The position numbers were made by a program, and so were the translations under genes. Source: Trypanosoma brucei (lineage: Eukaryota). Taken from it: a stretch of DNA of 64,000 nucleotides. Below are positions 25,349 through 47,500 of this stretch, one piece after another; the stretch's first letter is position 1, and the number at the start of each line of letters is the position of its first letter. The stretch spans positions 480,001 through 544,000 of the forward strand of contig CM000207.1 in assembly GCA_000002445.1 (NCBI GenBank). Direction: 5' to 3'. The notes beneath the pieces are model-generated. The model was not told where the DNA came from, did not search any database, and saw only the letters and a list, made by a program, of their open reading frames with translations.

Positions 25349-25462
25349 AACACAATAAGTTTGGAACCAATGAAAATAAAACTAGAAAATTCAACCTCAC
25401 TGTACGTGCAGTCAAGGAAGAAAAAGCAGGAAAACTGAGCACGGCATCACATTATTCACAAG

Positions 25463-25829
25463 TAGACACCGAAAAAAAAAAAGCAGTATAGAATACACGA
25501 CCCATAAGGCATCATTCAAAGGGGTTGTCAGATTGCTGAAAAAGGGAAATGAAGAGAAAATAATATAACATGGATATACACACAAAACAACAACAACATT
25601 AAAAACACCACAAAGGCCGAATCGAACGGCTGCGAGTCCAACTCGCCTACGGGTTTGAAGCCCGCACCCAGCACCAGCTGAGCTCATCGTGGCGCAACTT
25701 TTTCTTCCATCATCGGATTGAAATTCCATACTCGTGTCATACAGTCGCGTTTTGGGTGGTGACAAGTAACATTTCTCCTTCTCATTCCTTTAAATCCTTT
25801 TTCTTCATCTTTTAGTTGCAAGAAAAAAA
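25463..25829. repeat. 367-bp direct repeat, copy 1 (identical to 29300-29666), carrying tRNA-Sec
   Basis: The two copies are read as identical in the sequence at a 3837-bp offset. The flanks diverge at both ends. Confidence 0.9.
25606..25693 (-). tRNA. tRNA-Sec (anticodon UCA), copy 1, 88 nt
   Basis: Folded by hand as follows. The acceptor stem is 9 bp, GCCACGAUG paired with CUUUGUGGU, with a G73 discriminator. The D-stem is 6 bp (CUCAGC/GCUGGG) with a 4-nt loop. The anticodon stem is 6 bp (UGCGGG/CCCGUA) with loop CUUCAAA, giving anticodon UCA. The variable arm is a long 6-bp stem (GCGAGU/ACUCGC). The T-stem is 4 bp (GCCG/CGGC) with loop UUCGAUU. This is the 9/4 structure characteristic of eukaryotic tRNA-Sec. 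Confidence 0.8.
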
Positions 25830-29246: not shown

Positions 29247-29299
29247 TTTCGGTGGTAGCGAATTCTTAATAGTGTGGTGTTGTACAATGAGATTAAAAA

Positions 29300-29666
29300 T
29301 AGACACCGAAAAAAAAAAAGCAGTATAGAATACACGACCCATAAGGCATCATTCAAAGGGGTTGTCAGATTGCTGAAAAAGGGAAATGAAGAGAAAATAA
29401 TATAACATGGATATACACACAAAACAACAACAACATTAAAAACACCACAAAGGCCGAATCGAACGGCTGCGAGTCCAACTCGCCTACGGGTTTGAAGCCC
29501 GCACCCAGCACCAGCTGAGCTCATCGTGGCGCAACTTTTTCTTCCATCATCGGATTGAAATTCCATACTCGTGTCATACAGTCGCGTTTTGGGTGGTGAC
29601 AAGTAACATTTCTCCTTCTCATTCCTTTAAATCCTTTTTCTTCATCTTTTAGTTGCAAGAACAGGT
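29300..29666. repeat. 367-bp direct repeat, copy 2, carrying tRNA-Sec
   Basis: Identical to 25463-25829. Confidence 0.9.
29443..29530 (-). tRNA. tRNA-Sec (anticodon UCA), copy 2
   Basis: The sequence is identical to copy 1 at offset +3837. Confidence 0.8.
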
Positions 29667-29839: not shown

Positions 29840-29965
29840 TCATCCCTCAAGTGAAGTTACTAAAAGTTGCTTGGGTGTGAACTCAGTTTCGAGATGACTG
29901 AGAATCCAACTTGGCATACGGTGGCCACGGAGCGATGAGGCACATTCACCATCTGTGGACCCCAT
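29840..29965 (-). pseudogene. 5' fragment (41 codons) of a paralogue of the 32261..32845 gene family
   Basis: The first 28 codons (MGSTDGECASSLRGHRMPSWILSHLETE) are identical to the start of the 32261..32845 gene. The sequence then diverges and reaches a stop after 13 more codons. It lies inside the 320-bp repeat. Confidence 0.6.
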
Positions 29966-30200
29966 CCCTTCAAGAGTTTCGTAGGACTGTATATATGGGT
30001 CACTTAAATACGACCTCTACGAAAACAACTTGGACACGGGACAAAACAAAAAACAAAGAGCAAAGAAAGAAAGAAAGAGGAGAACCAAGAGGGAAAAGGA
30101 GCGGGTGAATGAAGTGATGGATTGATTGAATTGAAGGATGACAGCAAACACGCAATAATAGTGAGTGCGCCATACAACAAAATGAAGAAATTGAGAAGAG
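29881..30200. repeat. About 320-bp direct repeat, roughly 98% identical to 32761-33080
   Basis: The identical 65-aa plus ORFs 29911..30108 and 32791..32988 are side-effects of this repeat. The repeat contains the 5' UTR and first 28 codons of the family gene. Confidence 0.85.
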
Positions 30201-30836
30201 GGATGGTGGGAGGAAAAAAGAAAAGAACGTTTTCATTCAATAGTCAACGAAAAGGCCAACAGAAAATGGAAGGGATTCGGAGTCACTTTTCTCGCACCGC
30301 CTCCCATACCGCTGGAACGGTTCAATTACGAAGGGCAGCGGTAACACGAGGAAAAAGCAGGTGGAAAGAAAAACATTTTTGACCGCTCATAGCGCTAAGA
30401 AAAAAAAAAAGTGACCTCTCCAACAAGCTGCAAACCCCCACAACCGACAGGGGTAGTCACTGCAATGCCCTCCCTTCCCCCCCCCCCCAGGAACACGCTT
30501 ACATTTGCTTTGCTTTTCGTTTCTTTTTGATAGGTATGTCATCGATGCTGTACCTGACGCTATATTTGCACTACTAATACGTATACAAAAATACATACAT
30601 ACTCATTTACTTATAGTTAGTTGCACCATTTTGGCACTTGAAAAGCCACTCCCTCGACCGTTAATGCCAGCACAGAAGGTGCATAATGTATGTGTAAAAT
30701 AGTACCTTATAAAACAAATACGAAAACACGCGCGCGCGAGTAAAGGCAAAGGAGTTAGGGTGCGATGCTGTACGAGGAAGCACCACTCTATTTCTTTAAC
30801 TTTTTCCTCTAGTTCCCGGAAAGAACAGTGCTCGAA

Positions 30837-31433
30837 TTATTTCCGTGGATAAAGGGCAACGGTACGCCAGAAATTGTACACCTTCAGCTGGTTGTGGAAC
30901 CGGCTTTCCTCACTGGGATCGTGAGAATGATCCAAAACAAATGTAACCACAAGTCGATCGGTGAATTTCATCTTCATCTGGCCAATGCGCTCCGATGAAA
31001 TGCCGCAACAGGCAGCCACATCTTCCTTGATGGCTCGCTCCAGAGCCACAGACATATTAGAGAGAGCTTGCGACCAACGTGCCCCGCGGAACCGGATCGT
31101 GTGGGTAACGGCCGTTCTCCCGGCAACTGGTTGAAGAGACCGTACGGAAACGTTTGTACCCGATTCACGACGAGAAGTACTGCGGTTATCAAAAGAGAAA
31201 ATCCTGTCGCCACCACTCCTGGAAGAAACTCTCTCGGTATAGTTGTTGTACACCGCTCCCTGCTTTTCCCCATTCGATCCAGAAAAGGAAGCCTTGCGAG
31301 GATTCATGCCATCCGCTGTGAGAGGAGGGGCAACGTGACCTCTGTTTACAGACGCCCGGCGGTTGGCGACCCAATCCGGCATACGATGAACAACCTCTCG
31401 TTGGCTATAGTTAACACCGTTCTGTGTTGTCAT
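30837..31433 (-). CDS. hypothetical protein, family member A (198 aa)
   Basis: Shares an N-terminal HRMPDWVANRR motif and a C-terminal THTIRFRGARW...AIKEDVAACCG...VVTFVLDHSHD region with the ORFs at 32261..32845 and 33726..34358. Confidence 0.6.
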   Translation of the reverse strand: MTTQNGVNYSQREVVHRMPDWVANRRASVNRGHVAPPLTADGMNPRKASFSGSNGEKQGAVYNNYTERVSSRSGGDRIFSFDNRSTSRRESGTNVSVRSLQPVAGRTAVTHTIRFRGARWSQALSNMSVALERAIKEDVAACCGISSERIGQMKMKFTDRLVVTFVLDHSHDPSEESRFHNQLKVYNFWRTVALYPRK

Positions 31434-32260
31434 TTTTCGTCACTTGGGGGCAAACCTTGATGTTAGCTGCACGTGTATGACGACGGAACGTTACACACAG
31501 AGTATGAGAGGAAGGGAATAAGAAGGGATATGAGAAGTCACGGAAACACGAACTACAATGGAATTCAACTACTTTCAGCGACCGTGCGACGTGGCAAGCA
31601 AAGAAATAATTTAATGAAAGGATACATTAACAAATATGTTGAAATGCAGCAGTTGGCCACCCCGCAATGACGTTTGTAAACCGTCAGAGAGTAACGAGTG
31701 TCCTATGACCAAATACGCGAGGAGACATTTAACTCCCCTACTTTACGGCGATCGGGAAGAGCAATCAGACCCCATTGTGTCTTATATCTTGATGCTCACT
31801 TCCCTCGCCCCAATACAACGGACAAATTAACCCCTTGGATAATAATGGCATCCTTTACGCAGCACAGAGGGGAGGAGGAGAGAAAAAAAGAGGAAAACGT
31901 CAAACGTTGCTGGGTTACCAGAGATATAGAAATGTGCCCTTCCCCCACTTCTATATTCCCTAACCCCCTGAATGTCAATAACTGTATAAAACACTGGGAG
32001 GTCGGCACTCACAATATTTTCTTTACTTCACTTTCTCCTTTTTCCCCACTTAAAAATACATTCCTTCATGTGGTAGGAATGTATTTGTGTAGACACATTC
32101 TAAAGAAGCGAAACAAGGAAAAAGCTTTTCCATTACGCGTAAGTGTTTTTTTTTTCGTTTGCCTTCCTATACATGGTCGTCACTGTAAAATAACAATCAA
32201 ACAGCAAAAAAGGTACCTATGTATGACAATTGGTGCCCCCCCCAAAAAAAGTGTATACTT

Positions 32261-32845
32261 TCATCTTAGCAAATAGAGCGATGAAGTTCTCGGAAATTTG
32301 CATACTTTCAAGCGGGCATGGAAGGGCCGCTCCCCGCCATCATCATGCGAGTGGTCGACAATGAATGTTACCACAAGAATATCAGTAAGTTTCAGCTCCA
32401 GCTGAAGAATACGACCAATATCGAGTCCACATCCCTCGCTAATATCCTCCTTGACGGCCTGCGCCACGAGATCCTTTTTCTCTTCTATCAAATTTGCCCA
32501 ATCCGACATGCGAAACCGAATAGTATGTCTGGCAATTCGGTGCCCATTACCTGGTACGGCTGATTGTACAGACACGGAGGGCCTAGAACTACGACAGGAA
32601 TCGGCGCATTCTTCTTCTACAGGCATCACGATCTTTTCCTTTGGAGGTGCCTTCTTTAATATTTTAAGACCTTGCGGGAATCTTTTCTTCAGCACGGTGA
32701 CAGGAACACTTGGAGGGGCCTTCTCCTCTTCGACCAGTGGCGTATCATTCAGGCACTTGGACTCAGTTTCGAGATGACTGAGAATCCAACTTGGCATACG
32801 GTGGCCACGGAGCGATGAGGCACATTCACCATCTGTGGACCCCAT
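32261..32845 (-). CDS. hypothetical protein, family member B (194 aa)
   Basis: Contains RMPSWILSH, RHTIRFRMSDW, AVKEDISEGCG and VVTFIVDHSHDD, which are paralogous to member A. Confidence 0.6.
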   Translation of the reverse strand: MGSTDGECASSLRGHRMPSWILSHLETESKCLNDTPLVEEEKAPPSVPVTVLKKRFPQGLKILKKAPPKEKIVMPVEEECADSCRSSRPSVSVQSAVPGNGHRIARHTIRFRMSDWANLIEEKKDLVAQAVKEDISEGCGLDIGRILQLELKLTDILVVTFIVDHSHDDGGERPFHARLKVCKFPRTSSLYLLR

Positions 32846-33080
32846 CCCTTCAAGAGTTTCGTAGGACTGTATATATGGGTCACTTAAATACGACCTCTAC
32901 GAAAACAACTTGGACACGGGACAAAACAAAAAACAAAGAGCAAAGAAAGAAAGAAAGAGGAGAACCAAGAGGGAAAAGGAGCGGGTGAATGAAGTGATGA
33001 ATTGATTGAATTGAAGGATGACAGCAAACACGCAATAATAGTGAGTGCAGCATACAACAAAATGAATAAATTGAGAAGGG
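32761..33080. repeat. About 320-bp direct repeat, copy 2 (see 29881-30200)
   Basis: Read directly from the sequence. Confidence 0.85.
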
Positions 33081-33725
33081 TACATTTTACAGGTATATAA
33101 AAAACGCGGTAACTACTCACCCCTATAATGACGGTAAAGAATCATTAAGGAATAATGAGGACCCCATGACCCAATGCGCGAGGAAACCTTCAACAGGTAT
33201 ATAAGGTGTGGGAAACATCCACCAAGATACCGCATCAATTGCATAAAATACTATCACCATTTAATCCTCACCATCCATTTCGTGGACCACCTCTTCAATA
33301 CCCCCTTTCCCTCCTCTTCCTCCTCCTCCCACGTGGCACACGATGGTTACATGGGTTAGGAGGGAGAGACATAAGGAAAGAAAAAAACAAACAAACAAAC
33401 AAACGTACCAACAAAAAATCATACAATCAAGAATATCATGCGCTCACTCACCTTTAAATACATATGTCCACATATATACATCAACATGAACATAAGGGGG
33501 TGATACTGCATCAAGGCAACAAAGCGGACACACAAGCACTAATTAGAATTTGGGTATTTGAGGGTGTGGACGAAGGAAAAGAAAAAAAACAAGAGGAACA
33601 AAGGAGAAGAAAGAATAACAATAAAATTAACTGCTTTTTTTTTTTTTGGTGTTCTAATACTGTTGCTGGTGGGCCCTTGTCGGCATTGATATGGGAGGGG
33701 GAAGGGGACTTCAAGATAGTCTAGT

Positions 33726-34358
33726 TTAGCTGTCATGTTGCTTGGTAATAACTTTCCCCATCTTGTGGTCAAGAAATAACGTTGCTAACGGGGTACCAGA
33801 GAGAAATACATTACATTCCAAGAAACGTTCCGCGTCCCCCTCTTCAGCACCGCATTCTTCATCCTCAAACGCAACTTCAAAACCTTCCTCTTCATCCTTG
33901 CCGTTTAGCAGTGGCTTCCACCCCGACCCACGGAAACGAACAACATGTTTGGTCGCATTACCGTCACTTCCAGGACCCGAAGACAGCAGAGATAAGGAGG
34001 GACCTCTACCGTTATCGCGCCCTGCAAGCCTCCTGAGAGAAGCGACCTCGTTATTTTCTTTTGATGGAGTTCGTTCTGCAATACTGGCGGCATCAGTTGA
34101 GGGTTCCACAGCTAATATAGTATCCAGTCTCTGTTCCGAGTCGCCAACGGTTGTATTTTCCGGTGACTCGCATGATGTAAATGCGGGGGACTCGCTGTCC
34201 GAAACTGTGGTAGGCTTGCGGCCTGAGCCGCTTTGAGGAGACATAACGGGAGCCGTACCAAGGGGAGTGTTGATGGGTAAATTAAAACGTCTGCGAACCC
34301 AGTCGGGCATGGGGTGCCATGTGAGGCTATTGATTATATCCTCCGCGTAATACGGCAT
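33726..34358 (-). CDS. hypothetical protein, divergent family member C (210 aa)
   Basis: Contains HPMPDWVRRRF, HVVRFRGSGW and LFLDHKMGK. It is a more divergent paralogue. Confidence 0.5.
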   Translation of the reverse strand: MPYYAEDIINSLTWHPMPDWVRRRFNLPINTPLGTAPVMSPQSGSGRKPTTVSDSESPAFTSCESPENTTVGDSEQRLDTILAVEPSTDAASIAERTPSKENNEVASLRRLAGRDNGRGPSLSLLSSGPGSDGNATKHVVRFRGSGWKPLLNGKDEEEGFEVAFEDEECGAEEGDAERFLECNVFLSGTPLATLFLDHKMGKVITKQHDS

Positions 34359-35915: not shown

Positions 35916-37076
35916 TTAGATTTCACTGGGTTTCTGGACGGAGGCGACATTTTCATCTAACATTGTGGCGACATTTGCTACCTTTATATTTATTGCTGCT
36001 TGGCCGTTATCATCAGACGCGCCTGCCTCTCGTCGTTGGATAACCTTATCCCTCTCATAATCCATCATCCGGCGCAGTAGTTTACTGTAGCTTTCAAACC
36101 ATTGAAACTCCTTTGTTGTATAGTCACAGAACTTTCCTTCAGGGTTCATCAGGTACATGATGATGGAGTGGTCCACAAGATAGTCATCCTCGCTCAGTAC
36201 TGTCTCATCAGGGAGAGCAAAGTAAACGCGGTACTGACGCGCCACTGATTCCACTTCTTCCTGAGTGCCCACAAGCCCCAGAATCCGTGGGTTAAAATCT
36301 GCTAGATAATCCCGTATTTTCTCAGGTGTGTCACGGTGCGGATCGAGGGAAATAAATATGGGCTGCCAGTAGTCACGACCCACCTTCTTGTCAAGGTGTT
36401 GAACGACACGGCTGAGCTTTGCCATCTCCTCCGGGCACACATCAGGGCAGTTGGTGAAACCAAAGTAAATGTAGAGCCACTTTCCAAGAAAGTCCTTTTC
36501 AGTGTAGCGGCGCCCATCGACGCCAATTAATGAGAAGGGCCCGCCAATGCTTGGTCCTTCGGGGCTGTCAAAAGCCTTAACCGCACGTAACTTTGGGTCG
36601 AACCGCATTTGCTCACGCCGCACACGAATAGATATGACAACTGTTATAACTCCCAGAGAAAGGAACAACAAACCCCACAGCATCCACGCGGGGCTGTCCC
36701 GCACCTCAGATAACCGCTCACTAAGTTTTCTCCGTTCCGCCTCCTCCTCTCTTTCCACATATTCTTGAAAGGTAAATATCTGTGAGTCCCTTTGCTCCGC
36801 CACGCGAATGTGAATAGGTTTTTCCTTGTCCACAACGTCAATATCTTTTCCACCACCAGTGCCTCCAGTTGAGTGACGTCTCATCATACTAATGGTTATC
36901 ACATCAACCTGGTGAGAAACCGGCCGAGGAGACGCCGCCCGTATCGCCGGTGCAAATGAGGCGCTACTTCCGCATCGGTGCCTGAAAGCAACGCTGATGG
37001 TCCCGCGGTTCTGCAGTAAATTACAAGAAACACTGCAGTTGATCCCTAAATGGACGAGGTGTGAGCCGCGTATCAT
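35916..37076 (-). CDS. SCO1/SenC-family cytochrome c oxidase assembly copper chaperone (about 386 aa; an alternative start is MMRRHS at 36887)
   Basis: Has a thioredoxin-like domain with the CxxxC copper-binding motif in FGFTNCPDVCPEE and the conserved His in YLVDHSIIMYLMNPEG. A predicted TM helix (WMLWGLLFLSLGVITVVISI) lies N-terminal to the domain. Confidence 0.8.
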   Translation of the reverse strand: MIRGSHLVHLGINCSVSCNLLQNRGTISVAFRHRCGSSASFAPAIRAASPRPVSHQVDVITISMMRRHSTGGTGGGKDIDVVDKEKPIHIRVAEQRDSQIFTFQEYVEREEEAERRKLSERLSEVRDSPAWMLWGLLFLSLGVITVVISIRVRREQMRFDPKLRAVKAFDSPEGPSIGGPFSLIGVDGRRYTEKDFLGKWLYIYFGFTNCPDVCPEEMAKLSRVVQHLDKKVGRDYWQPIFISLDPHRDTPEKIRDYLADFNPRILGLVGTQEEVESVARQYRVYFALPDETVLSEDDYLVDHSIIMYLMNPEGKFCDYTTKEFQWFESYSKLLRRMMDYERDKVIQRREAGASDDNGQAAINIKVANVATMLDENVASVQKPSEI

Positions 37077-38900: not shown

Positions 38901-41183
38901 TTAAGATGCCTGTTGCACAGATGCATCCTCACTGCCAAGTTCCTCAACATCATTGATACTTGGCTCATCGGCGCCCGGAGCGGCTCCAGCCGCAACGTCA
39001 TTGAAGCTCAGTTCCTCAAGTTCCGCACTCGGGAGTTTGTCTGCTGGATGTTCTGCCGCTGTGGGTGCCTCACCCTCAGGGCCCGGGATATCAGAGTTGG
39101 AACCATCTGATTTCGGGGAGTCACCACCACCCAATTGTTTCATCGTTCCCGCCAGCACTTGATCCCTTCTCACAGCGGATGCCTGTCTCGACGAAGTCTG
39201 CTGTTCTCTCCTCCCACCACGGTCAAAAAAATCATCAGCTGCTTCATTATAACCAAGCAGCGCATAACCGTAGCGCACAGCAGGATCATAGTCACACCGG
39301 ACTTCAGCAATTTCCACGCACGGTTTTCGATAATCTTCATCATCTGTATAGCCATAGTCCTCATCACCGAAGTCTTCCAAAGTCTCCACCAAACCGCTTC
39401 CGGCAAAGTTCAACTCCCACATCCTTTCGCGTCGCAACTGAACCAACCACTCGTCAATACGCAGCTTGCTCATTGATTTCGTCGTTCCACCAGTTAGAGA
39501 ATGGTAGAAGGCACAAACTGTTGGGAAGGCGCAACGCTCTAGCAACGCCTGGAGTTCCTCCTTAGGGGTGCTCTTATCGTGCTCCGTAGTGAACGACGCC
39601 TCCAGTGGGTAACCCTCAAAAGTTAGGTTGGTGAAATTCTCTTTCGGCAATCTGAGTGTCGCAGATGCGTCCTCCTTAAAAGCAGCGTCCAGATATTCAC
39701 GGTGCTCCTCATTATCAAGCACTTCCTGCCACTTATCTCCAGTGAAAAATATGTGCAGATCGGAGTACACTGTGTTCTCAATCCGGCGGCGCTTCTCCAG
39801 ATACAGTTTGTCACGACCAGCCTTCTCCAAGCAGCGGCGCCGCCACACCGTCCTTTCGTGTCGACGATCCACATCCGTGAGGAAGGCATCAAGTTGCCGC
39901 ATCTCCTCCTCATCATCTTCGGTGAACAACTCCTTCTTGCTGAGCTCCTCCATGCGTAACTGCAGTTCGCGCTTCTCCTGGTCATCCCGTTCCTCGGCAG
40001 CGAAGAGAGCCTCAAGTTCGTCAATGTCGTGCAGGTCGTTGACGGTGCGAACTGTCTGCTGCATCTTCAGTACTTCTTCAGGTTGTAGTTGAACATAGAC
40101 GGGAATCTCCTTACCCAGGAGCGTCTTGCTTTCCTTCGGCCCAAAAACAAGTAAAACGCTGTCGAGTGAAACAATATCACTCACAACGCGACCGTTCGTT
40201 GTGCGTTGTACGTAGCATCCTTCAACATTGATAGGTTCCTCTTCATCATTTAGTAGATTAAGTGGTTCTTCACCAATCAAAGCCTGCTTCTTTTCGGAAA
40301 TTTGCACCCCTAACATAGCAATCATCTCACGCAGTCCGTTGACCTCGGTGATAAGAAGAGCTTGTTCTTGGAGTTGAGCGAAGCAACCATCAACGACGCG
40401 TTCCTCCGCCTCCCGAGCTCTTGAACACGCCATCTGCACATTCAGCCACCTCCTAATAACAACTGGAAGTGGAGCACCTTGTAGCGCCTGTGAAGATGCG
40501 CCCTTTCTCTTGCTTTCTTTCAGCGATTCGGCGGGGACCAACGCAAGCTCATTCTTTATCTTCTTCCGTTGCAGTTTCGACAGCGGTGCGACCGTGCAGT
40601 CAAGTTCCATTATCCGCCCAACAAAATCACTTTGACGCATGACAATCTGCATGCTTTCCCAACTTCCATTATGATCCTCTTGTAGGGCAATCATGAGCGC
40701 GCGGACAAGTGAAAACAGTTCCTCAGATGGTCGACCCGCTGAACGTAATTCCCTCCAACTGCGCGCGGGTACTTGTTCAATCGCGGCGCGAACTTGATCA
40801 AGCTCCACCATTTGCTGACGAGTGAACGCCGCTGCAATGGCCTGTTTTTCTTGAGTTACCTCACGGGCACGGTAGAGCCGTTCAGAAGAACGATCCTCAT
40901 CCTCCACCAGCTGCTGGTATTGCTGTTGGAGCGCTTTCAGCTCGTTCAGCCCATCAAGACGATCCTGCTGCACCGCAAGTTCACCCAGTTTTTCGTCATA
41001 CGGTTCAAACCCACCAGGCACGGCATCGACACGATCGAACAATTCGACACGAACGTGCTGACTTGTGGGCAGTCCGATAACACGAGCAAGAGTATTGCTC
41101 CACTCATAATCACCGCCAATCCGTTCCAAGCAAATGTAGTCACTTACATTGACCTCCAAACACGATCTGTTCATTCCCGTCAT
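38901..41183 (-). CDS. hypothetical coiled-coil protein, copy 1 (760 aa)
   Basis: A long ORF. Its N-terminal ~570 aa are nearly identical to the 42177..43916 ORF. It has an acidic, serine-rich C-terminal tail that is unique to this copy. Confidence 0.7.
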   Translation of the reverse strand: MTGMNRSCLEVNVSDYICLERIGGDYEWSNTLARVIGLPTSQHVRVELFDRVDAVPGGFEPYDEKLGELAVQQDRLDGLNELKALQQQYQQLVEDEDRSSERLYRAREVTQEKQAIAAAFTRQQMVELDQVRAAIEQVPARSWRELRSAGRPSEELFSLVRALMIALQEDHNGSWESMQIVMRQSDFVGRIMELDCTVAPLSKLQRKKIKNELALVPAESLKESKRKGASSQALQGAPLPVVIRRWLNVQMACSRAREAEERVVDGCFAQLQEQALLITEVNGLREMIAMLGVQISEKKQALIGEEPLNLLNDEEEPINVEGCYVQRTTNGRVVSDIVSLDSVLLVFGPKESKTLLGKEIPVYVQLQPEEVLKMQQTVRTVNDLHDIDELEALFAAEERDDQEKRELQLRMEELSKKELFTEDDEEEMRQLDAFLTDVDRRHERTVWRRRCLEKAGRDKLYLEKRRRIENTVYSDLHIFFTGDKWQEVLDNEEHREYLDAAFKEDASATLRLPKENFTNLTFEGYPLEASFTTEHDKSTPKEELQALLERCAFPTVCAFYHSLTGGTTKSMSKLRIDEWLVQLRRERMWELNFAGSGLVETLEDFGDEDYGYTDDEDYRKPCVEIAEVRCDYDPAVRYGYALLGYNEAADDFFDRGGRREQQTSSRQASAVRRDQVLAGTMKQLGGGDSPKSDGSNSDIPGPEGEAPTAAEHPADKLPSAELEELSFNDVAAGAAPGADEPSINDVEELGSEDASVQQAS

Positions 41184-41796
41184 TTACCTCAATACTCGCG
41201 TATGGTTTACTCCACGTTGACACGCGTGGTCACTACCCTCGCAGCCACGTGACGCGCACGAGGAGTTTTAACAATAAAAACTTGATAACTCTCTCCTCTG
41301 CTACTTACACTCTCAAGTAAAAAATTAACACAAACTACTTCCTACCTATTACAGTCAGTGATATGCTTAAAAAGATTAATACCTTTATTCTCTTTTCCTC
41401 TTGTCCTCAGGTTTACAGGAAAATACGAAAGGAATCAATCAATCAATCAACATATAAAGAGGATCAGCATCAACACGCATGCAACAACATGATCATCCAC
41501 GAAAAAACATCACCAAAATCACGAGCAGCCGCAGCTACAATACACACACACAAACACACAGATGCGCAAAAACGTACACCGATACCACCTTTCTATATAT
41601 GTCATAAAACAAGCAGCAACAAAAAAGCAACAGAAAAGACACAAACGCACACAAACACACAGAAATTTAAAAATGTTAAAAAACAAATCCACATAAAAAA
41701 CAGCAACAATATATATGCAAAACAGCACAATCAGCACCAACGTACAGAAGCAATATAAAATATACAAACAACAAAAGCTACACACAAAAAGTCAGT
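39476..41796. repeat. tandem segmental duplication, unit 1 (about 2.3 kb, period 2733 bp)
   Basis: Near-identical to 42209-44529. It covers the 5' ~1.7 kb of the gene plus ~600 bp of upstream A/C-rich spacer. Confidence 0.85.
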
Positions 41797-42176: not shown

Positions 42177-43916
42177 CTATCCATCAACGTCCTCCCCTTC
42201 CACTGATTCCGTCGTTCCACCAGTTAGAGAATGGTAGAAGGCACAAACTGTTGGGAAGGCGCAACGCTCTAGCAACGCCTGGAGTTCCTCCTTAGGGGTG
42301 CTCTTATCGTGCTCCGTAGTGAACGACGCCTCCAGTGGGTAACCCTCAAAAGTTAGGTTGGTGAAATTCTCTTTCGGTAATCTGAGTGTCGCAGATGCGT
42401 CCTCCTTAAAAGCAGCGTCCAGATATTCACGGTGCTCCTCATTATCAAGCACTTCCTGCCACTTATCTCCAGTGAAAAATATGTGCAGATCGGAGTACAC
42501 TATGTTCTCAATCCGGCGGCGCTTCTCCAGATACAGTTTGTCACGACCAGCCTTCTCCAAGCAGCGGCGCCGCCACACCGTCCTTTCGTGTCGACGATCC
42601 ACATCCGTGAGGAAGGCATCAAGTTGCCGCATCTCCTCCTCATCATCTTCGGTGAACAACTCCTTCTTGCTGAGCTCCTCCATGCGTAACTGCAGTTCGC
42701 GCTTCTCCTGGTCATCCCGTTCCTCGGCAGCGAAGAGAGCCTCAAGTTCGTCAATGTCGTACAGGTCGTTGACGGTGCGAACTGTCTGCTGCATCTTCAG
42801 TACTTCTTCAGGTTGTAGTTGAACATAGACGGGAATCTCCTTACCCAGGAGCGTCTTGCTTTCCTTCGGCCCAAAAACAAGTAAAACGCTGTCGAGTGAA
42901 ACAATATCACTCACAACGCGACCGTTCGTTGTGCGTTGTACGTAGCATCCTTCAACATTGATAGGTTCCTCTTCATCATTTAGTAGATTAAGTGGTTCTT
43001 CACCAATCAAAGCCTGCTTCTTTTCGGAAATTTGCACCCCTAACATAGCAATCTTCCCACGCAGTCCGTTGACCTCGGACAGCAGCGCAGCTATTCGGTC
43101 ATGTTTCACAACCAATCGATCAGCGACGCGTTCCTCCGCCTCCCGAGCTCTTGAACACGCCATCTGCACATTCAGCCACCTCCTAATAACAACTGGAAGT
43201 GGAGCACCGCGCAACAATTTAGGGAATGAGTCACTCTTCCCTCTACGTTCTTTCAGCGATTCGGCGGGGACCAACGCAAGCTCGTTCTTTATCTTCTTCC
43301 GTTGCAGTTTCGACAGCGGTGCGACCGTGCAGTCAAGTTCCATTATCCGCCCAACAAAATCACTTTGACGCATGACAATCTGCATGCTTTCCCAACTTCC
43401 ATTATGATCCTCTTGTAGGGCAATCATGAGCGCGCGGACAAGTGAAAACAGTTCCTCAGAAGGATTGTTTATATTCCTAATAATCCTCCAACTGCGCGCG
43501 GGTACTTGTTCAATCGCGGCGCGAACTTGATCAAGCTCCACCATTTGCTGACGAGTGAACGCCGCTGCAATGGCCTGTTTTTCTTGAGTTACCTCACGGG
43601 CACGGCAGAGCCGTTCAGAAGAACGATCCTCATCCTCCACCAGCTGCTGGTATTGCTGTTGGAGCGCTTTCAGCTCGTTCAGCCCATCAAGACGATCCTG
43701 CTGCACCGCAAGTTCACCCAGTTTTTCGGCATACGGTTCAAACCCACCAGGCACGGCATCGACACGATCGAACAATTCGACACGAACGTGCTGACTTGTG
43801 GGCAGTCCGATAACACGAGCAAGAGTATTGCTCCACTCATAATCACCGCCAATCCGTTCCAAGCAAATGTAGTCACTTACATTGACCTCCAAACACGATC
43901 TGTTCATTCCCGTCAT
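42177..43916 (-). CDS. hypothetical coiled-coil protein, copy 2 (579 aa). It is C-terminally truncated or replaced relative to copy 1.
   Basis: Matches copy 1 at offset 2733 bp. The ORF ends ...SLTGGTTESVEGEDVDG at the duplication junction. Confidence 0.65.
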   Translation of the reverse strand: MTGMNRSCLEVNVSDYICLERIGGDYEWSNTLARVIGLPTSQHVRVELFDRVDAVPGGFEPYAEKLGELAVQQDRLDGLNELKALQQQYQQLVEDEDRSSERLCRAREVTQEKQAIAAAFTRQQMVELDQVRAAIEQVPARSWRIIRNINNPSEELFSLVRALMIALQEDHNGSWESMQIVMRQSDFVGRIMELDCTVAPLSKLQRKKIKNELALVPAESLKERRGKSDSFPKLLRGAPLPVVIRRWLNVQMACSRAREAEERVADRLVVKHDRIAALLSEVNGLRGKIAMLGVQISEKKQALIGEEPLNLLNDEEEPINVEGCYVQRTTNGRVVSDIVSLDSVLLVFGPKESKTLLGKEIPVYVQLQPEEVLKMQQTVRTVNDLYDIDELEALFAAEERDDQEKRELQLRMEELSKKELFTEDDEEEMRQLDAFLTDVDRRHERTVWRRRCLEKAGRDKLYLEKRRRIENIVYSDLHIFFTGDKWQEVLDNEEHREYLDAAFKEDASATLRLPKENFTNLTFEGYPLEASFTTEHDKSTPKEELQALLERCAFPTVCAFYHSLTGGTTESVEGEDVDG

Positions 43917-44529
43917 TTACCTCAATACTCGCGTATGGTTTACTCCACGTTGACACGCGTGGTCACTACCCTCGCAGCCACGTGACGCGCACGAGGAGTT
44001 TTAACAATAAAAACTTGATAACTCTCTCCTCTGCTACTTACACTCTCAAGTAAAAAATTAACACAAACTACTTCCTACCTATTACAGTCAGTGATATGCT
44101 TAAAAAGATTAATACCTTTATTCTCTTTTCCTCTTGTCCTCAGGTTTACAGGAAAATACGAAAGGAATCAATCAATCAATCAACATATAAAGAGGATCAG
44201 CATCAACACGCATGCAACAACATGATCATCCACGAAAAAACATCACCAAAATCACGAGCAGCCGCAGCTACAATACACACACACAAACACACAGATGCGC
44301 AAAAACGTACACCGATACCACCTTTCTATATATGTCATAAAACAAGCAGCAACAAAAAAGCAACAGAAAAGAAACAAACGCACACAAACACACAGAAATT
44401 TAAAAATGTTAAAAAACAAATCCACATAAAAAAAAGCAACAATATATATGCAAAACAGCACAATCAGCACCAACGTACAGAAGCAATATAAAATATACAA
44501 ACAACAAAAGCTACACACAAAAAGTCAAT
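42209..44529. repeat. tandem segmental duplication, unit 2
   Basis: See unit 1. Its upstream boundary (44529) coincides with the stop codon of the giant repeat gene. Confidence 0.85.
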
Positions 44530-47500
44530 AAAGCATCCACACAGCAGTGTATGGACACTCGTGGAGACTCTCATCAATATCATCCTTCTTTAGGTTGTGT
44601 GGTGGGGTTATGGTAAATTCAAGTTTTAGCATTTCCTCGCTGTAACTCACCACCAAGTCCTGCACCTGTTCCTCATTAAGATGCAACTGAGCAGCCGTTT
44701 CTTTGGTAAAGGCACTTACGACATCAGGTTTCCTCTTCTCCAAAACATAATCCCAGTCCTCACCCTCAAACCCAACATAGTGTTTCGTCACCGTTCCTGT
44801 TGCAGAAGATGAATCCTTCATCATAGCCGCACGTGCAGCGGAAGCACGTGGCACATATAGTGACCACATCTCAGAGAAGGGGCATGCAGCAAGGGTACTT
44901 AATATATCAGCATCATTTAATGAGCACCCAATGACTTTATAATCAATCAACAGACTTCCGAGTCGGCAATCAATGATAACCGCCTGCTGTGGAGAGACAC
45001 CGAGAACACGCGCAGCGTCATTACGGAATGCGTTCTCCAACCCTTCACGATCACCACTAAGCACAAGATCCCAATCATCTCCCTCAAATTTCTCTGTCAA
45101 TACCGATGACTCCCGTGGTCTAAGTTCATACAGCATCCACACAGCAGTGTATGGACATTCATTAAGACGCTCATCAATATCATCCTTCTTTAAGTTGTGT
45201 GGTGGGGTTATGGTAAATTCAAGTTTTAGCATTTCCTCGCTGTAACTCAGCACCAAGTCCTGCACCTGTTCCTCATTAAGATGCAACTGAGCAGCCGTTT
45301 CTTTGGTAAAGGCACTTACGACATCAGGTTTCCTCTTCTCCAAAACATAATCCCAGTCCTCACCCTCAAACCCAACATAGTGTTTCGTCACCGTTTCTGT
45401 TGCAGAAGATGAATCCTTCATCATAGCCGCACGTGCAGCGGAAGCACGTGGCACATATAGTGACCACACTTCAGAGAAGGGACATGCAGCAAGGGTACTT
45501 AATATATCAGCATCATTTAATGAGCACCCAATGACTTTATAATCAATCAACAGACTTCCGAGTCGGCAATCAATGATAACCACCTGCTGTGGAGAGACAC
45601 CGAGAACACGCGCAGCGTCATTACGGAATGCGTTCTCCAACCCTTCACGATCACCACTAAGCACAAGATCCCAATCATCTCCCTCAAATTTTTCTGTCAA
45701 TACCGATGACTCCCGTGGTCTAGATTCATACAGCATCCACACAGCAGTGTATGGACATTCATTAAGACGCTCATCAATATCATCCTTCTTTAGGTTGTGT
45801 GGTAGGGTTATGGTAAATTCAAGTTTTAGCATTTCCTCGCTGTAACTCACCACCAAGTCCTGCACCTGTTCCTCATTAAGTTGCAACTGAGCAGCCGTTT
45901 CTTTGGTAAAGGCACTTACGACATCAGGTTTCCTCTTCTCCAAAACATAATCCCAGTCCTCACCCTCAAATTCCACGTGGTGTTGCGTAACCGTTTCTGT
46001 TGCAGAAGATGAATCCTTCATCATAGCCGCACGTGCAGCGGAAGCACGTGGCACATATAGTGACCACATCTCAGAGAAGGGACATGCAGCAAGGGTACTT
46101 AATATATCAGCATCATTTAATGAGCTCCCAATGACTTTATAATCAATCAACAGACTTCCGAGTCGGCAATCAATGATAACCACCTGCTGTGGAGAGACAC
46201 CGAGAACACGCGCAGCGTCATTACGGAATGCGTTCTCCAACCCTTCACGATCACCACTAAGCACAAGATCCCAATCATCTCCCTCAAATTTTTCTGTCAA
46301 TACCGATGACTCCCGTGGTCTAGATTCATACAGCATCCACACAGCAGTGTATGGACATTCATTAAGACGCTCATCAATATCATCCTTCTTTAGGTTGTGT
46401 GGTAGGGTTATGGTAAATTCAAGTTTTAGCATTTCCTCGCTGTAACTCACCACCAAGTCCTGCACCTGTTCCTCATTAAGTTGCAACTGAGCAGCCGTTT
46501 CTTTGGTAAAGGCACTTACGACATCAGGTTTCCTCTTCTCCAAAACATAATCCCAGTCCTCACCCTCAAATTCCACGTGGTGTTGCGTAACCGTTTCTGT
46601 TGCAGAAGATGAATCCTCCATCATAGCCGCACGTGCAGCGGAAGCACGTGGCACATATAGTGACCACACCTCAGAGAAGGGACATGCAGCAAGGGTACTT
46701 AATATATCAGCATCATTTAATGAGCTCCCAATGACTTTATAATCAATTAACAGACTTCCGAGTCGGCAATCAATGATAACCACCTGCTGTGGAGAGACAC
46801 CGAGAACACGCGCAGCGTCATTACGGAATGCGTTCTCCAACCCTTCACGATCACCACTAAGCACAAGATCCCAGTCATCTCCCTCAAATTTTTCTGTCAA
46901 TACCGATGACTCCCGTGGTCTAGATTCATACAGCATCCACACAGCAGTGTATGGACATTCATTAAGACGCTCATCAATATCATCCTTCTTTAGGTTGTGT
47001 GGTAGGGTTATGGTAAATTCAAGTTTTAGCATTTCCTCGCTGTAACTCACCACCAAGTCCTGCACCTGTTCCTCATTAAGTTGCAACTGAGCAGCCGTTT
47101 CTTTGGTAAAGGCACTTACGACATCAGGTTTCCTCTTCTCCAAAACATAATCCCAGTCCTCACCCTCAAATTCCACGTGGTGTTGCGTAACCGTTTCTGT
47201 TGCAGAAGATGAATCCTCCATCATAGCCGCACGTGCAGCGGAAGCACGTGGCACATATAGTGACCACATCTCAGAGAAGGGACATGCAGCAAGGGTACTT
47301 AATATATCAGCATCATTTAATGAGCTCCCAATGACTTTATAATCAATCAACAGACTTCCGAGTCGGCAATCAATGATAACCACCTGCTGTGGAGAGACAC
47401 CGAGAACACGCGCAGCGTCATTACGGAATGCGTTCTCCAACCCTTCACGATCACCACTAAGCACAAGATCCCAATCATCTCCCTCAAATTTTTCTGTCAG

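What the first reader, a model, noticed from the sequence alone, without database searches (positions are those of the whole stretch)
29840..34358. Tandem family of three small paralogous genes plus a 5' gene fragment carried on a 320-bp repeat
The ORFs at 30837..31433, 32261..32845 and 33726..34358 share an N-terminal H.MPDW[VI]..RR motif. They also share a C-terminal block: [TH][HV].[IV]RFRG..W, then (A/F)[IV]KED[VI]..(C)CG, then VVTF[VI][VL]DHSHD, ending near ..L[YK]. A 320-bp segment containing the 5' UTR and first 28 codons of member B is repeated 2.9 kb downstream (29881-30200). There it heads a 41-codon dead-end ORF, a remnant of a fourth member. The conserved Cys-Cys-Gly and DHSHD tail look like a possible metal-binding or functional motif. 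I cannot assign the family to a named domain.
Basis: seen in the sequence. Interest (0 to 1): 0.55.

Follow-up and report, generated by a model that had tools for sequence, protein, structure and literature searches.

The report
Three small trypanosome FAZ1-domain genes
These are three real, expressed, anciently duplicated Trypanosoma brucei genes for small proteins carrying the cytoskeleton-linked "FAZ1 conserved domain"; next to them lies a recent junk copy of one gene's start, so the locus is an ordinary, already annotated but uncharacterised gene family.

Summary
The window is T. brucei TREU927 chromosome 9, and the three minus-strand ORFs are annotated genes: A is Tb09.160.1100, C is Tb09.160.1120, and B lies between them. 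They are true paralogues (BLASTP 1e-29 to 9e-7).

In T. brucei it is known from cytoskeletal proteins such as FAZ1, FLAM8 and GB4. GB4, the giant neighbour in this window, is built from about 66 copies of it.

All three genes also share an N-terminal [W/F]-H-x-M-P-x-x-V motif, which is conserved in small orthologues across Trypanosoma and Leishmaniinae. These orthologues sit in syntenic tandem arrays between SCO1 and the kinase or methyltransferase gene.

The proposed metal-binding Cys-Cys-Gly and DHSHD motifs are not conserved. C has a truncated domain, yet its protein has been detected. A is procyclic-enriched and its mRNA is trans-spliced.

The 321-bp repeat is real and is present in three Trypanozoon assemblies. 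It is a recent partial copy of B's splice signal, 5' UTR and first 28 codons. It is not an old fourth member.

Function remains inferred: probably small cytoskeleton-associated adaptor proteins. Interest is low to moderate.

The parts
30837..31433 (-). Gene A (Tb09.160.1100; EAN76343), 198 aa, pI 10.5. It has an N-terminal motif, a disordered linker and a C-terminal FAZ1_cons domain.
   Evidence: The ORF is. The protein is identical to the TREU927 protein. The Pfam match is 51 bits. The gene ID follows from the length of 198 aa and the 1640-bp spacer to kinase Tb09.160.1090. The protein ratio procyclic/short stumpy is 11.8, and the mRNA is 2.4-fold up in procyclics.
31467..31468 (-). AG trans-splice acceptor of gene A. 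The mRNA starts at 31466, giving a 33-nt 5' UTR.
   Evidence: Logan contig L005 begins with 26 nt of the T. brucei spliced leader joined to CTAACATC... at this position.
31356..31391 (-). N-terminal motif of A (V15-R26: VHRMPDWVANRR).
   Evidence: Seen in the alignment with 21 orthologues and paralogues. AF2 pLDDT is about 82, with a helix at residues 20-29.
30846..31106 (-). FAZ1_cons domain of A (residues 110-196).
   Evidence: Pfam PF23398, E 1.3e-13. AF2 pLDDT is 90-98 for blocks 111-198, with a beta-beta-alpha-beta-beta-alpha topology starting at residue 95.
32261..32845 (-). Gene B (EAN76344, presumably Tb09.160.1110), 194 aa, pI 8.2, with the same architecture. It starts MGSTDGEC.
   Evidence: (46 bits). 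An mRNA-like contig, L006, covers 32981-31764. B was not found in the proteome tables consulted.
32780..32806 (-). N-terminal motif of B (G14-L22: GHRMPSWIL), a variant with S in place of D/E.
32273..32530 (-). FAZ1_cons domain of B (residues 106-191).
   Evidence: Pfam PF23398, E 5.1e-12.
33726..34358 (-). Gene C (Tb09.160.1120; EAN76345; Q38FS5), 210 aa, pI about 4.5-4.8. The motif is intact, and the domain is diverged and C-terminally truncated.
   Evidence: Two unique peptides give 19% coverage with PEP 8e-36, and the protein is seen in long slender, short stumpy and procyclic forms. mRNA-like contigs L007 and L008 cover 34411-33385.
34287..34319 (-). N-terminal motif of C (W14-R24: WHPMPDWVRRR).
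   Evidence: AF2 pLDDT is 76-79.
33762..33953 (-). Partial FAZ1_cons domain of C (about residues 136-199). It lacks the last 26 or so profile positions (helix 2 and F-P-R-T-x-A-L-Y).
   Evidence: Pfam gives only 13.4 bits, below the cut-off. The family HMM matches positions 10-177 of 203 at E 1e-17. The AF2 domain pLDDT is about 82-86. tblastn with the T. cruzi paralogue hits 33953-33762.
32758..33078 (-). 321-bp repeat, parental copy. It holds the polypyrimidine tract, the AG, the 5' UTR and codons 1-28 (plus part of codon 29) of gene B.
29878..30198 (-). 321-bp repeat, displaced copy (98.4% identical), in the A-to-kinase spacer. It is a complete trans-splicing signal plus the B 5' end.
   Evidence: It is present in T. 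equiperdum and T. b. gambiense. The A transcript contigs end at 30214-30221, just upstream of it.
29840..29965 (-). 41-codon dead-end ORF. It consists of 28 residues of B followed by 13 unrelated residues and a stop.
   Evidence: No family-like sequence follows it in any frame. No such gene product is on record.
29297..29661 (-). Context: a tRNA-Sec cassette (tRNA at 29443-29530), a 365-bp copy of 25460-25824, in the same spacer.
   Evidence: Described in Aeby et al. 2010, PMC2943599.
44525..64000 (-). Context: GB4 (Tb09.160.1200), with 197-aa repeats each containing two FAZ1_cons domains. The ORF runs off the window.
   Evidence: E 3.4e-48, 2 domains per repeat. The identity as GB4 comes from peptides and IDs.

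Best explanation
Shown. The locus holds three old tandem paralogues of a trypanosomatid-wide family of small modular proteins. Each protein has three parts:
- a conserved N-terminal peptide motif, [W/F]-H-x-[M/L]-P-[D/E/S]-[W/E]-[V/L/I]-R, at about residue 15;
- a disordered Ser/Thr/Pro-rich linker (65-96 residues in the three T. brucei genes, 26-173 across the family);
- one C-terminal FAZ1_cons domain (PF23398, formerly Pfam-B 506), predicted as a compact alpha/beta sandwich.

The same domain builds the neighbouring giant protein GB4. In T. brucei it is otherwise reported in cytoskeleton-associated proteins: FAZ1, FAZ4, FAZ6, FAZ8, FAZ10, FLAM8, PFC20 and Tb927.10.870.

The genes are expressed. 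A has a mapped spliced-leader site and is procyclic-enriched. C is detected as protein in bloodstream and procyclic forms.

Inferred. The proteins are small peripheral components or adaptors of the trypanosome cytoskeleton (subpellicular, FAZ or flagellar). The FAZ1_cons module would dock them, and the N-terminal motif would provide a second intramolecular or partner-binding contact. The paralogues appear to have subfunctionalised. A is very basic and procyclic-enriched. B is near neutral and possibly N-acylated. C is acidic, with a truncated domain.

The 321-bp element is a recent partial duplication of B's trans-splicing signal, 5' UTR and first 28 codons. It landed downstream of A. There it most likely acts only as an RNA-processing signal: its polypyrimidine tract and AG would direct polyadenylation of A mRNA just upstream. 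The 41-codon ORF it heads is non-functional.
For: Identity and annotation. A, B and C are 100% identical to EAN76343, EAN76344 and EAN76345 of T. b. brucei TREU927.

Domain. A and B match PF23398 above the gathering score. GB4 repeats match the same model at 3.4e-48.

Family and motif. The representative search gave 88 hits. It included roughly 20 small proteins of about 150-300 aa that align over the full length or carry the motif. The motif sits at residues 10-21 in every small member with an intact N-terminus. It is absent from the large multi-domain hits.

Synteny. T. cruzi has GB4-like, SCO1, three small FAZ1_cons genes, then the kinase. Porcisia has a large FAZ1_cons gene, SCO1, three small genes, then the methyltransferase. 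Accession numbers are adjacent or nearly so (two apart in T. theileri and T. conorhini) for the small genes in T. vivax, T. congolense, T. theileri, T. conorhini and T. grayi. Leishmania orthologues are all annotated 'hypothetical'.

Structure. The AF2 model of A has pLDDT 90-98 (10-residue blocks) over residues 111-198, about 82 for the motif and below 50 for the linker. The C domain has pLDDT of about 82-86.

Expression. A spliced-leader-containing contig maps the splice site of A. The A protein ratio PC/SS is 11.8. A mRNA is 2.4-fold up in procyclic forms. C peptides are detected.

Cytoskeletal link of the domain. Sunter et al. 2015 (PMC4406125) and the 2016 review (PMC4827413) report it.

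Repeat. The A transcript contigs stop at 30214-30221, about 100-190 nt upstream of the repeat's polypyrimidine tract and AG. This fits the rule that polyadenylation occurs 100-400 nt upstream of the next splice acceptor, as stated in PMC2943599.
Against: No localisation, interaction or knock-down data for A, B or C were found. The function of the FAZ1_cons domain itself 'remains unknown' according to PMC8459223.

Sunter et al. listed only nine T. brucei proteins with the domain and did not include these three. The 'all members are cytoskeletal' rule has therefore not been tested on them.

The moderately high pLDDT of the N-terminal motif is weak evidence for docking, and I could not inspect contacts.

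B has no peptide evidence in the tables consulted.

The Logan contigs carry no poly(A). The 3' end of A mRNA next to the repeat could therefore be an assembly break at repeated sequence and not a true processing site.
Confidence: 0.6

Rival explanations
1. The small proteins are not cytoskeletal. The FAZ1_cons fold would be a ferredoxin-like ligand- or nucleic-acid-binding module, and A, B and C would be soluble regulators, for example RNA- or ribosome-associated.
Against: All structural matches are weak and generic. The mL100 match is not significant. Every characterised T. brucei protein with the domain is cytoskeletal. C is acidic (pI 4.8), so basic charge is not a family trait.
Confidence: 0.2
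2. The 41-codon ORF is what remains of an ancient fourth family member. Its 5' end would have been kept identical to B by gene conversion while the rest was deleted, for example when the tRNA-Sec cassette was inserted.
For: The same spacer contains another recently homogenised duplicate, the 365-bp tRNA-Sec cassette at 99.7% identity. T. cruzi and Porcisia have a further, differently built small FAZ1_cons gene at the position next to the kinase or methyltransferase. T. brucei lacks that gene.
Against: The homology ends sharply on both sides of the 321 bp. No FAZ1_cons-like or T. cruzi-third-gene-like sequence is detectable anywhere in the 1640-bp spacer in any frame. The missing ancestral gene has no WHxMP N-terminus, so it would not look like the start of B.
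Confidence: 0.15
3. Gene C is a decaying pseudogene and not a functional member.
For: Its domain fails the Pfam threshold at 13.4 bits. It lacks the last 26 or so profile positions, including the near-invariant L-Y. It sits on the longest branch of the family tree. Its AF2 confidence is lower than that of A.
Against: Two unique peptides, 19% coverage and PEP 8e-36 were recorded across three life stages. The ORF length is intact in four Trypanozoon sequences, with pN/pS of about 0.15-0.4 on very few substitutions. mRNA-like contigs exist. The N-terminal motif is perfectly kept.
Confidence: 0.1
4. The conserved Cys-Cys-Gly and DHSHD tail form a metal-binding site.
For: A has CCG and DHSHD, and B has GCG and DHSHD.
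Against: Neither element is conserved outside African trypanosomes. Orthologues have ATG, ACN or AAK in place of CCG, and VNHDSD, VRHQND, VTPEDD, VRRENE or YSES in place of DHSHD. C itself has neither. No Pfam metal-binding family matches.
Confidence: 0.03
5. The ORFs are spurious and non-coding.
For: None beyond their small size and the 'hypothetical' annotation.
Against: Orthologues are found across Trypanosomatidae with conserved synteny. There is a spliced-leader mRNA and peptide evidence.
Confidence: 0.01

Closest known systems
Pfam PF23398 FAZ1_cons (formerly Pfam-B PB000506) proteins of T. brucei: FAZ1, FAZ4, FAZ6, FAZ8, FAZ10, GB4, FLAM8, PFC20 and Tb927.10.870
   Same: They share the same roughly 90-residue domain, with the F-x-G-x-x-W ... 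A-F-x-x-D ... L-Y signature. It is confined here to trypanosomatid proteins. GB4 is a syntenic neighbour in Trypanosoma and Leishmaniinae.
   Different: The known members are large (67 to over 900 kDa). Several of them carry many domain copies, coiled coils or repeats. A, B and C are about 22 kDa, with a single C-terminal copy, an extra N-terminal beta-strand and a family-specific N-terminal WHxMP motif. They are not in the published list of nine and have no localisation data.
GB4 (Tb09.160.1200), which caps the posterior ends of subpellicular microtubules
   Same: Several orthologues of the small genes are auto-annotated 'putative microtubule-associated protein Gb4'. They share the domain and the chromosomal neighbourhood.
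   Different: GB4 is a giant protein built from about 37 repeats of 600 bp (PMC5397161). The small proteins have one domain that is only 16-21% identical to the GB4 domains. They are not GB4 orthologues.
The tRNA-Sec locus of T. brucei (Aeby et al. 2010, NAR 38:5833)
   Same: It is the same stretch of chromosome 9. Gene A is the 'hypothetical' ORF upstream of kinase Tb09.160.1090 in their Figure 3, and the 1640-bp spacer is the one containing the 321-bp repeat.
   Different: That work concerns Pol II transcription of tRNA-Sec. As far as the passages I read show, it does not describe the small gene family or the 321-bp partial copy of B.
Truncated terminal or partial units of trypanosome tandem gene arrays, and intergenic processing signals
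   Same: The fragment is a direct repeat carrying a polypyrimidine tract, an AG and the start of a gene, at the downstream edge of a tandem family. The two copies flank the B-A unit and could mediate unequal crossover.
   Different: Here the array members themselves are ancient and share no DNA similarity. Only this 321-bp piece is recent.

Membership tests
Pfam PF23398 FAZ1_cons domain family | HMM score above the curated gathering threshold (27.5 bits) | tested here: met
   A scores 51.1 bits and B 46.0 bits. C scores only 13.4 bits and so fails on its own. However, C is recovered at E 1e-17 by a family HMM built without it.
Pfam PF23398 FAZ1_cons domain family | Signature residues F-x-G-x-x-W, A-F-x-x-D and the terminal L-Y | tested here: met
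   F, W, L and LY are invariant, and G and A nearly so, in a 16-sequence domain alignment that includes the GB4 domains. A and B have all of them. C has F-R-G-x-x-W and A-F-E-D but lacks the terminal L-Y.
Pfam PF23398 FAZ1_cons domain family | Stable association with the cytoskeleton (FAZ, flagellum or subpellicular array), as for all characterised T. brucei members | not testable with these tools
   Literature covers only other members. No main-text mention of the IDs around Tb927.9.2390-2489 or Tb09.160.1100-1130 was found.
Small 'WHxMP + FAZ1_cons' subfamily (defined here) | [W/F]-H-x-[M/L]-P-x-x-[V/L/I] motif within the first 25 or so residues | tested here: met
   A has it at residues 16-22, B at 15-21 (S variant) and C at 15-21. 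It is present in all small orthologues with a complete N-terminus and absent from the large hits.
Small 'WHxMP + FAZ1_cons' subfamily (defined here) | Syntenic tandem array downstream of SCO1 and a GB4-like gene | tested here: met
   Seen in T. brucei, T. cruzi, Porcisia hertigi and partly T. vivax.
GB4 orthologue (as some database names suggest) | Giant protein made of tandem repeats of about 200 aa, each with two domains | tested here: not met
   A, B and C are 194-210 aa with one domain. The GB4 repeat structure is shown.
   The residues are not conserved outside African trypanosomes and are absent from C.
Solved-structure fold families (ACT, SEA, RRM and other ferredoxin-like folds) | Significant structural or sequence similarity to a solved member | tested here: not met
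Gene fragment / pseudogene (41-codon ORF) | Homology to a parent gene that stops abruptly, with loss of the functional domain | tested here: met
   It is identical to B for 28 codons, followed by 13 unrelated codons and a stop. No domain lies downstream.

The most novel reading that the evidence does not exclude
The conserved N-terminal W-H-x-M-P-x-x-V peptide could be a ligand of the FAZ1_cons domain itself. It might bind in cis as a latch, or in trans to the many FAZ1_cons modules of GB4, FAZ1 or FLAM8. FAZ1_cons would then be a peptide-recognition module. The small proteins would be stage-specific caps or cross-linkers that tune assembly of the giant cytoskeletal proteins encoded next door. 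The 41-codon ORF, which retains only the motif, could even act as a competing mini-protein. This reading would give the first mechanistic handle on a domain whose function is still unknown.
Probability: 0.1. Interest if true: 0.6.

Novelty: new member of a known kind. Interest (0 to 1): 0.28.

Why it matters
The FAZ1_cons domain marks many proteins that build the flagellum attachment zone, the flagellar tip and the posterior microtubule cap of trypanosomes, yet its function is unknown. The small proteins studied here have a single domain and are soluble-sized and stage-regulated. They are the simplest members of the family, and so the most tractable for structural and binding studies. Their conserved N-terminal motif is a concrete candidate interaction site to test. 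Beyond that, the locus is ordinary. The genes are already annotated, and the 321-bp repeat is a routine partial duplication in a duplication-prone region.

Tried and rejected
(1) A single-sequence word-indexed search with A returned only itself. The profile search against representatives was needed to find the family.

(2) I suspected by eye that the missing C-terminus of C lay frameshifted downstream ('AKLDYLEVPFPLPY'). The family HMM on all six frames did not recover it, so I dropped the idea.

(3) I searched the A-to-kinase spacer for a decayed fourth gene. I used the family HMM, a domain-only HMM and tblastn with the T. cruzi and Porcisia third genes. Nothing was found.

(5) The PDB sequence profile gave only a marginal mL100 match. 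I did not pursue it.

(6) The literature searches for direct data found nothing on A, B or C in main texts. I tried old IDs, the prefixes Tb927.9.237-248, PF23398 and PFAMB506. Only supplementary proteome and microarray tables mention A and C. I could not establish the exact new-style IDs. tRNA-Sec is Tb927.9.2380, so the three genes are probably about Tb927.9.2400-2440.

(7) dN/dS between Trypanozoon strains rests on too few substitutions to be conclusive.

(8) The exact-sequence look-up of the 41-aa product found nothing on record.

Full report
1. What is in the sequence

The three ORFs lie on the minus strand at 30837-31433 (A, 198 aa), 32261-32845 (B, 194 aa) and 33726-34358 (C, 210 aa). 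All large ORFs of the window are on that strand, as expected for a kinetoplastid polycistron.

The three ORFs are significantly related. BLASTP gives A-B 1e-29 at 32% identity, B-C 3e-10 and A-C 9e-7. At the DNA level they share no detectable similarity, so the triplication is old.

- The N-terminal motif reads HRMPDWVANRR in A, HPMPDWVRRR in C and HRMPSWILSHL in B.
- The full C-terminal block is shared only by A and B.
- C keeps KHVVRFRGSGW and a degenerate middle part, and it stops before the terminal F-P-R-T-x-A-L-Y.

The repeat is 321 bp, at 29878-30198 and 32758-33078. It is 98.4% identical, with E 2e-162. The 41-codon ORF at 29840-29965 consists of 28 residues of B followed by 13 unrelated residues.

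2. Where the window comes from

A, B and C are 100% identical to EAN76343, EAN76344 and EAN76345 of Trypanosoma brucei brucei TREU927, where they are annotated 'hypothetical protein, conserved'.

The neighbours fix the locus on chromosome 9. In the direction of transcription the order is:
- GB4 (Tb09.160.1200), a giant repeat ORF from 44525 to beyond 64000
- NOP66 (Tb09.160.1180) and NOP86 (Tb09.160.1160)
- SCO1 (Tb09.160.1140)
- C, B and A
- a tRNA-Sec gene
- the kinase Tb09.160.1090
- a second tRNA-Sec gene
- a methyltransferase-like gene, Tb09.160.1070

The 1640-bp and 833-bp spacers quoted by Aeby et al. 2010 (PMC2943599) match exactly the A-to-kinase and kinase-to-1070 spacers here. Protein lengths in Gunasekera et al. 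2012 identify A as Tb09.160.1100 (198 aa) and C as Tb09.160.1120 (210 aa, 22.8 kDa). B is presumably Tb09.160.1110. tRNA-Sec is Tb927.9.2380 in the current nomenclature.

3. The domain has a name

A and B match Pfam PF23398 'FAZ1, conserved domain' above the curated cut-off of 27.5 bits. A scores 51.1 bits (E 1.3e-13) and B 46.0 bits (E 5.1e-12). C reaches only 13.4 bits, over the first third of the model. UniProt already labels A and B 'Flagellar attachment zone protein 1 conserved domain-containing protein'.

This is the former Pfam-B 506 domain. Sunter et al. 2015 reported it in nine T. brucei proteins, all cytoskeleton-associated: four FAZ proteins plus FAZ8, GB4, PFC20, FLAM8 and Tb927.10.870. 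The 2016 review marks it in FAZ1, FAZ4, FAZ6, FAZ8 and FAZ10. Its function 'remains unknown'.

Each 197-aa repeat of the neighbouring GB4 ORF contains two copies of the domain (E 3.4e-48). The three small genes are not on the published list of nine.

4. A trypanosomatid-wide small-protein subfamily with an N-terminal motif

A profile of A, B and C searched against 1.84 billion representative proteins gave 88 hits. It included roughly 20 small proteins of about 150-300 aa that align over the full length or carry the motif.

Cluster look-ups place these small proteins in T. congolense, T. vivax, T. grayi, T. cruzi, T. rangeli, T. conorhini, T. theileri, T. melophagium and Porcisia. A second search added Leishmania major, L. 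donovani, L. tarentolae and Leptomonas. All are 'hypothetical' or auto-named 'Gb4'.

The alignment shows two conserved blocks:
- an N-terminal [W/F]-H-x-[M/L]-P-[D/E]-[W/E]-[V/L]-R at residues 10-21;
- the C-terminal domain, [R/K]-H-T-V-R-F-R-G-x-x-W ... L-E-x-A-F-x-x-D ... V-T-F-V-V ... H-x-x-L-x-x-Y-x-F-P-R-T-x-A-L-Y.

The motif is found only in the small members, plus two members with two or three domains. It is not found in the giant hits.

CCG is limited to A and its T. congolense orthologue. DHSHD is limited to African trypanosomes.

5. Synteny and history

In T. cruzi the order is a GB4-like gene, SCO1, three small FAZ1_cons genes (197, 211 and 214 aa), then two kinase copies followed by a tRNA-Sec gene. 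In Porcisia hertigi the order is a large FAZ1_cons gene, SCO1, three small genes (218, 218 and 223 aa), then the methyltransferase. T. vivax is similar.

In both T. cruzi and Porcisia, the third small gene has the domain in its N-terminal half and no WHxMP motif. T. brucei instead has three motif-type genes, so there has been lineage-specific turnover within an ancient array. A neighbour-joining tree pairs A with a T. congolense orthologue at 51% identity and puts C on a long isolated branch.

6. Structure

AlphaFold2 with the 22-sequence family alignment models A with pLDDT of 90-98 (10-residue blocks) over residues 111-198. The fold is a beta-beta-alpha-beta-beta-alpha sandwich. It includes an extra strand (residues 95-100, NVSVRS) upstream of the Pfam boundary. 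The linker, residues 40-91, has pLDDT below 50. The N-terminal motif has pLDDT of about 82, with a helix at residues 20-29.

C gives the same core at pLDDT of about 82-86, with a shortened last helix. Its motif has pLDDT 76-79.

7. Expression

Short contigs assembled from public runs (ERR79291xx) cover each gene as mRNA-sized units. One of them, L005, starts with 26 nt of the T. brucei spliced leader joined to the sequence right after the AG at 31467-31468. This gives a 33-nt 5' UTR for A.

The published data on each gene are as follows:
- In SILAC proteomics, A has a procyclic/short-stumpy ratio of 11.8 (Table S7).
- On microarrays, A mRNA is 2.4-fold up in log procyclics against cultured bloodstream forms.
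- C was identified with two unique peptides, 19% coverage and PEP 8e-36. Its ratios are LS/PC 1.6, SS/LS 0.49 and PC/SS 1.3 (column order inferred from the companion Table S5).
- B was not found in those tables.

The paralogues differ strongly in charge: pI is 10.5 for A, 8.2 for B and 4.8 for C. Between Trypanozoon strains all three ORFs keep their length. The few substitutions give pN below pS in most comparisons that have any, including C in all three. C is therefore a live gene with a truncated domain and not a dead one.

8. The 321-bp repeat

The repeat contains a long polypyrimidine tract, the first downstream AG (30029-30030 in the displaced copy), a 5' UTR of about 63 nt and codons 1-28 of B. 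Homology ends sharply on both sides.

Both copies are present in T. equiperdum and T. b. gambiense. No family-like coding sequence follows the fragment in any frame. No domain remnant exists anywhere in the 1640-bp spacer.

The spacer is thus a mosaic of five pieces: the A 3' UTR, the copy of the B 5' end, 216 bp of unique sequence, the 365-bp tRNA-Sec cassette and 100 bp before the kinase ATG.

The A transcript contigs end at 30214-30221, about 100-190 nt upstream of the polypyrimidine tract and AG of the displaced copy. This fits the known coupling of polyadenylation to the next splice acceptor. However, the contigs lack poly(A) tails, and their ends may simply reflect assembly breaks at repeated sequence.

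The simplest reading is a recent partial duplication of B's 5' end. The alternative is the truncated last unit of a once-duplicated B-A unit. A relic of an ancient fourth member is not supported. The two direct repeats flank the B-A unit and could mediate copy-number change.

9. Mechanism, with what is shown and what is inferred

Shown: three real, expressed, ancient paralogues with a modular architecture of motif, disordered linker and FAZ1_cons domain; conserved synteny; different charge; at least partly different stage regulation; and a recent 5' fragment.

Inferred: cytoskeletal association, by analogy with all characterised FAZ1_cons proteins. The domain would act as a docking module and the N-terminal motif as a second contact. 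I put this at about 0.5-0.6. The main rival is a non-cytoskeletal ligand- or RNA-binding role for the ferredoxin-like fold (about 0.2). The metal-site and spurious-ORF readings are essentially excluded.

10. Verdict

However, they are already annotated members of a known, functionally unexplained kinetoplastid domain family. The modest new points are:
- recognition of a distinct small subfamily with a conserved N-terminal motif in a syntenic array next to GB4;
- the truncated but expressed paralogue C;
- the nature of the 321-bp fragment.

Interest is low to moderate.

Noticed in passing
window 25460-25824 and 29297-29661 (tRNA-Sec at 25606-25693 and 29443-29530, minus strand): Two tRNA-Sec genes sit inside 365-bp cassettes that are 99.7% identical and flank the kinase gene within a Pol II polycistron. 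This is the arrangement described by Aeby et al. 2010. The upstream cassette lies only 216 bp downstream of the displaced 321-bp copy of B's 5' end.
   Followed up: partly
window 39471-41767 and 42201-44500: A 2.3-kb direct duplication at 97% identity covers most of the NOP86 (Tb09.160.1160) and NOP66 (Tb09.160.1180) genes. It is another recent or homogenised duplication in the same region.
   Followed up: no
window 44525-64000 (minus strand): The GB4 ORF has more than 6480 codons in the window and runs off its end. It is made of near-identical 197-aa repeats, each containing two FAZ1_cons domains. Tandem Repeats Finder missed it because the period of 591 bp exceeds its limit.
   Followed up: partly
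window 32822-32845 (B codons 1-8) and 29942-29965 (fragment): B and the 41-codon fragment start MGSTDGEC. This fits the PROSITE N-myristoylation pattern and has a nearby Cys that could be palmitoylated. The T. congolense B-like protein starts MAAST, so the feature is not conserved.
   Followed up: no
PDB 7aih chain BG (mL100), residues 1232-1281: The FAZ1_cons profile marginally matches (E 0.05-0.35) a segment of kinetoplastid mitoribosomal protein mL100 that has the F-x-G-x-W ... L ... A-F-x-x-D pattern. If real, it would be the only solved structure of this domain.
   Followed up: partly
L001 12685-13329 (T. cruzi) and L012 13197-13868 (Porcisia hertigi): The third small gene of the array in T. 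cruzi and Porcisia has the FAZ1_cons domain in its N-terminal half, no WHxMP motif and a long C-terminal tail. T. brucei has no counterpart of this type.
   Followed up: partly
L001 14354-20636 (T. cruzi) and L011 12618-20465 (T. vivax): The kinase next to the array is present as two (T. cruzi) or three (T. vivax) tandem copies. A tRNA-Sec gene lies between the T. cruzi copies. T. brucei has one kinase flanked by two tRNA-Sec copies.
   Followed up: no
window 35916-37076 (minus strand): The SCO1-like ORF is 386 aa here, whereas the 2012 annotation used 323 aa. Gunasekera et al. Table S9 lists peptides from the 63-residue N-terminal extension, which suggests use of the upstream start.
   Followed up: no
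window 31698-32276 (plus strand): A 192-aa ORF lies antisense in the B-to-A spacer and overlaps the 3' end of B. It has no support and is most likely spurious.
   Followed up: no
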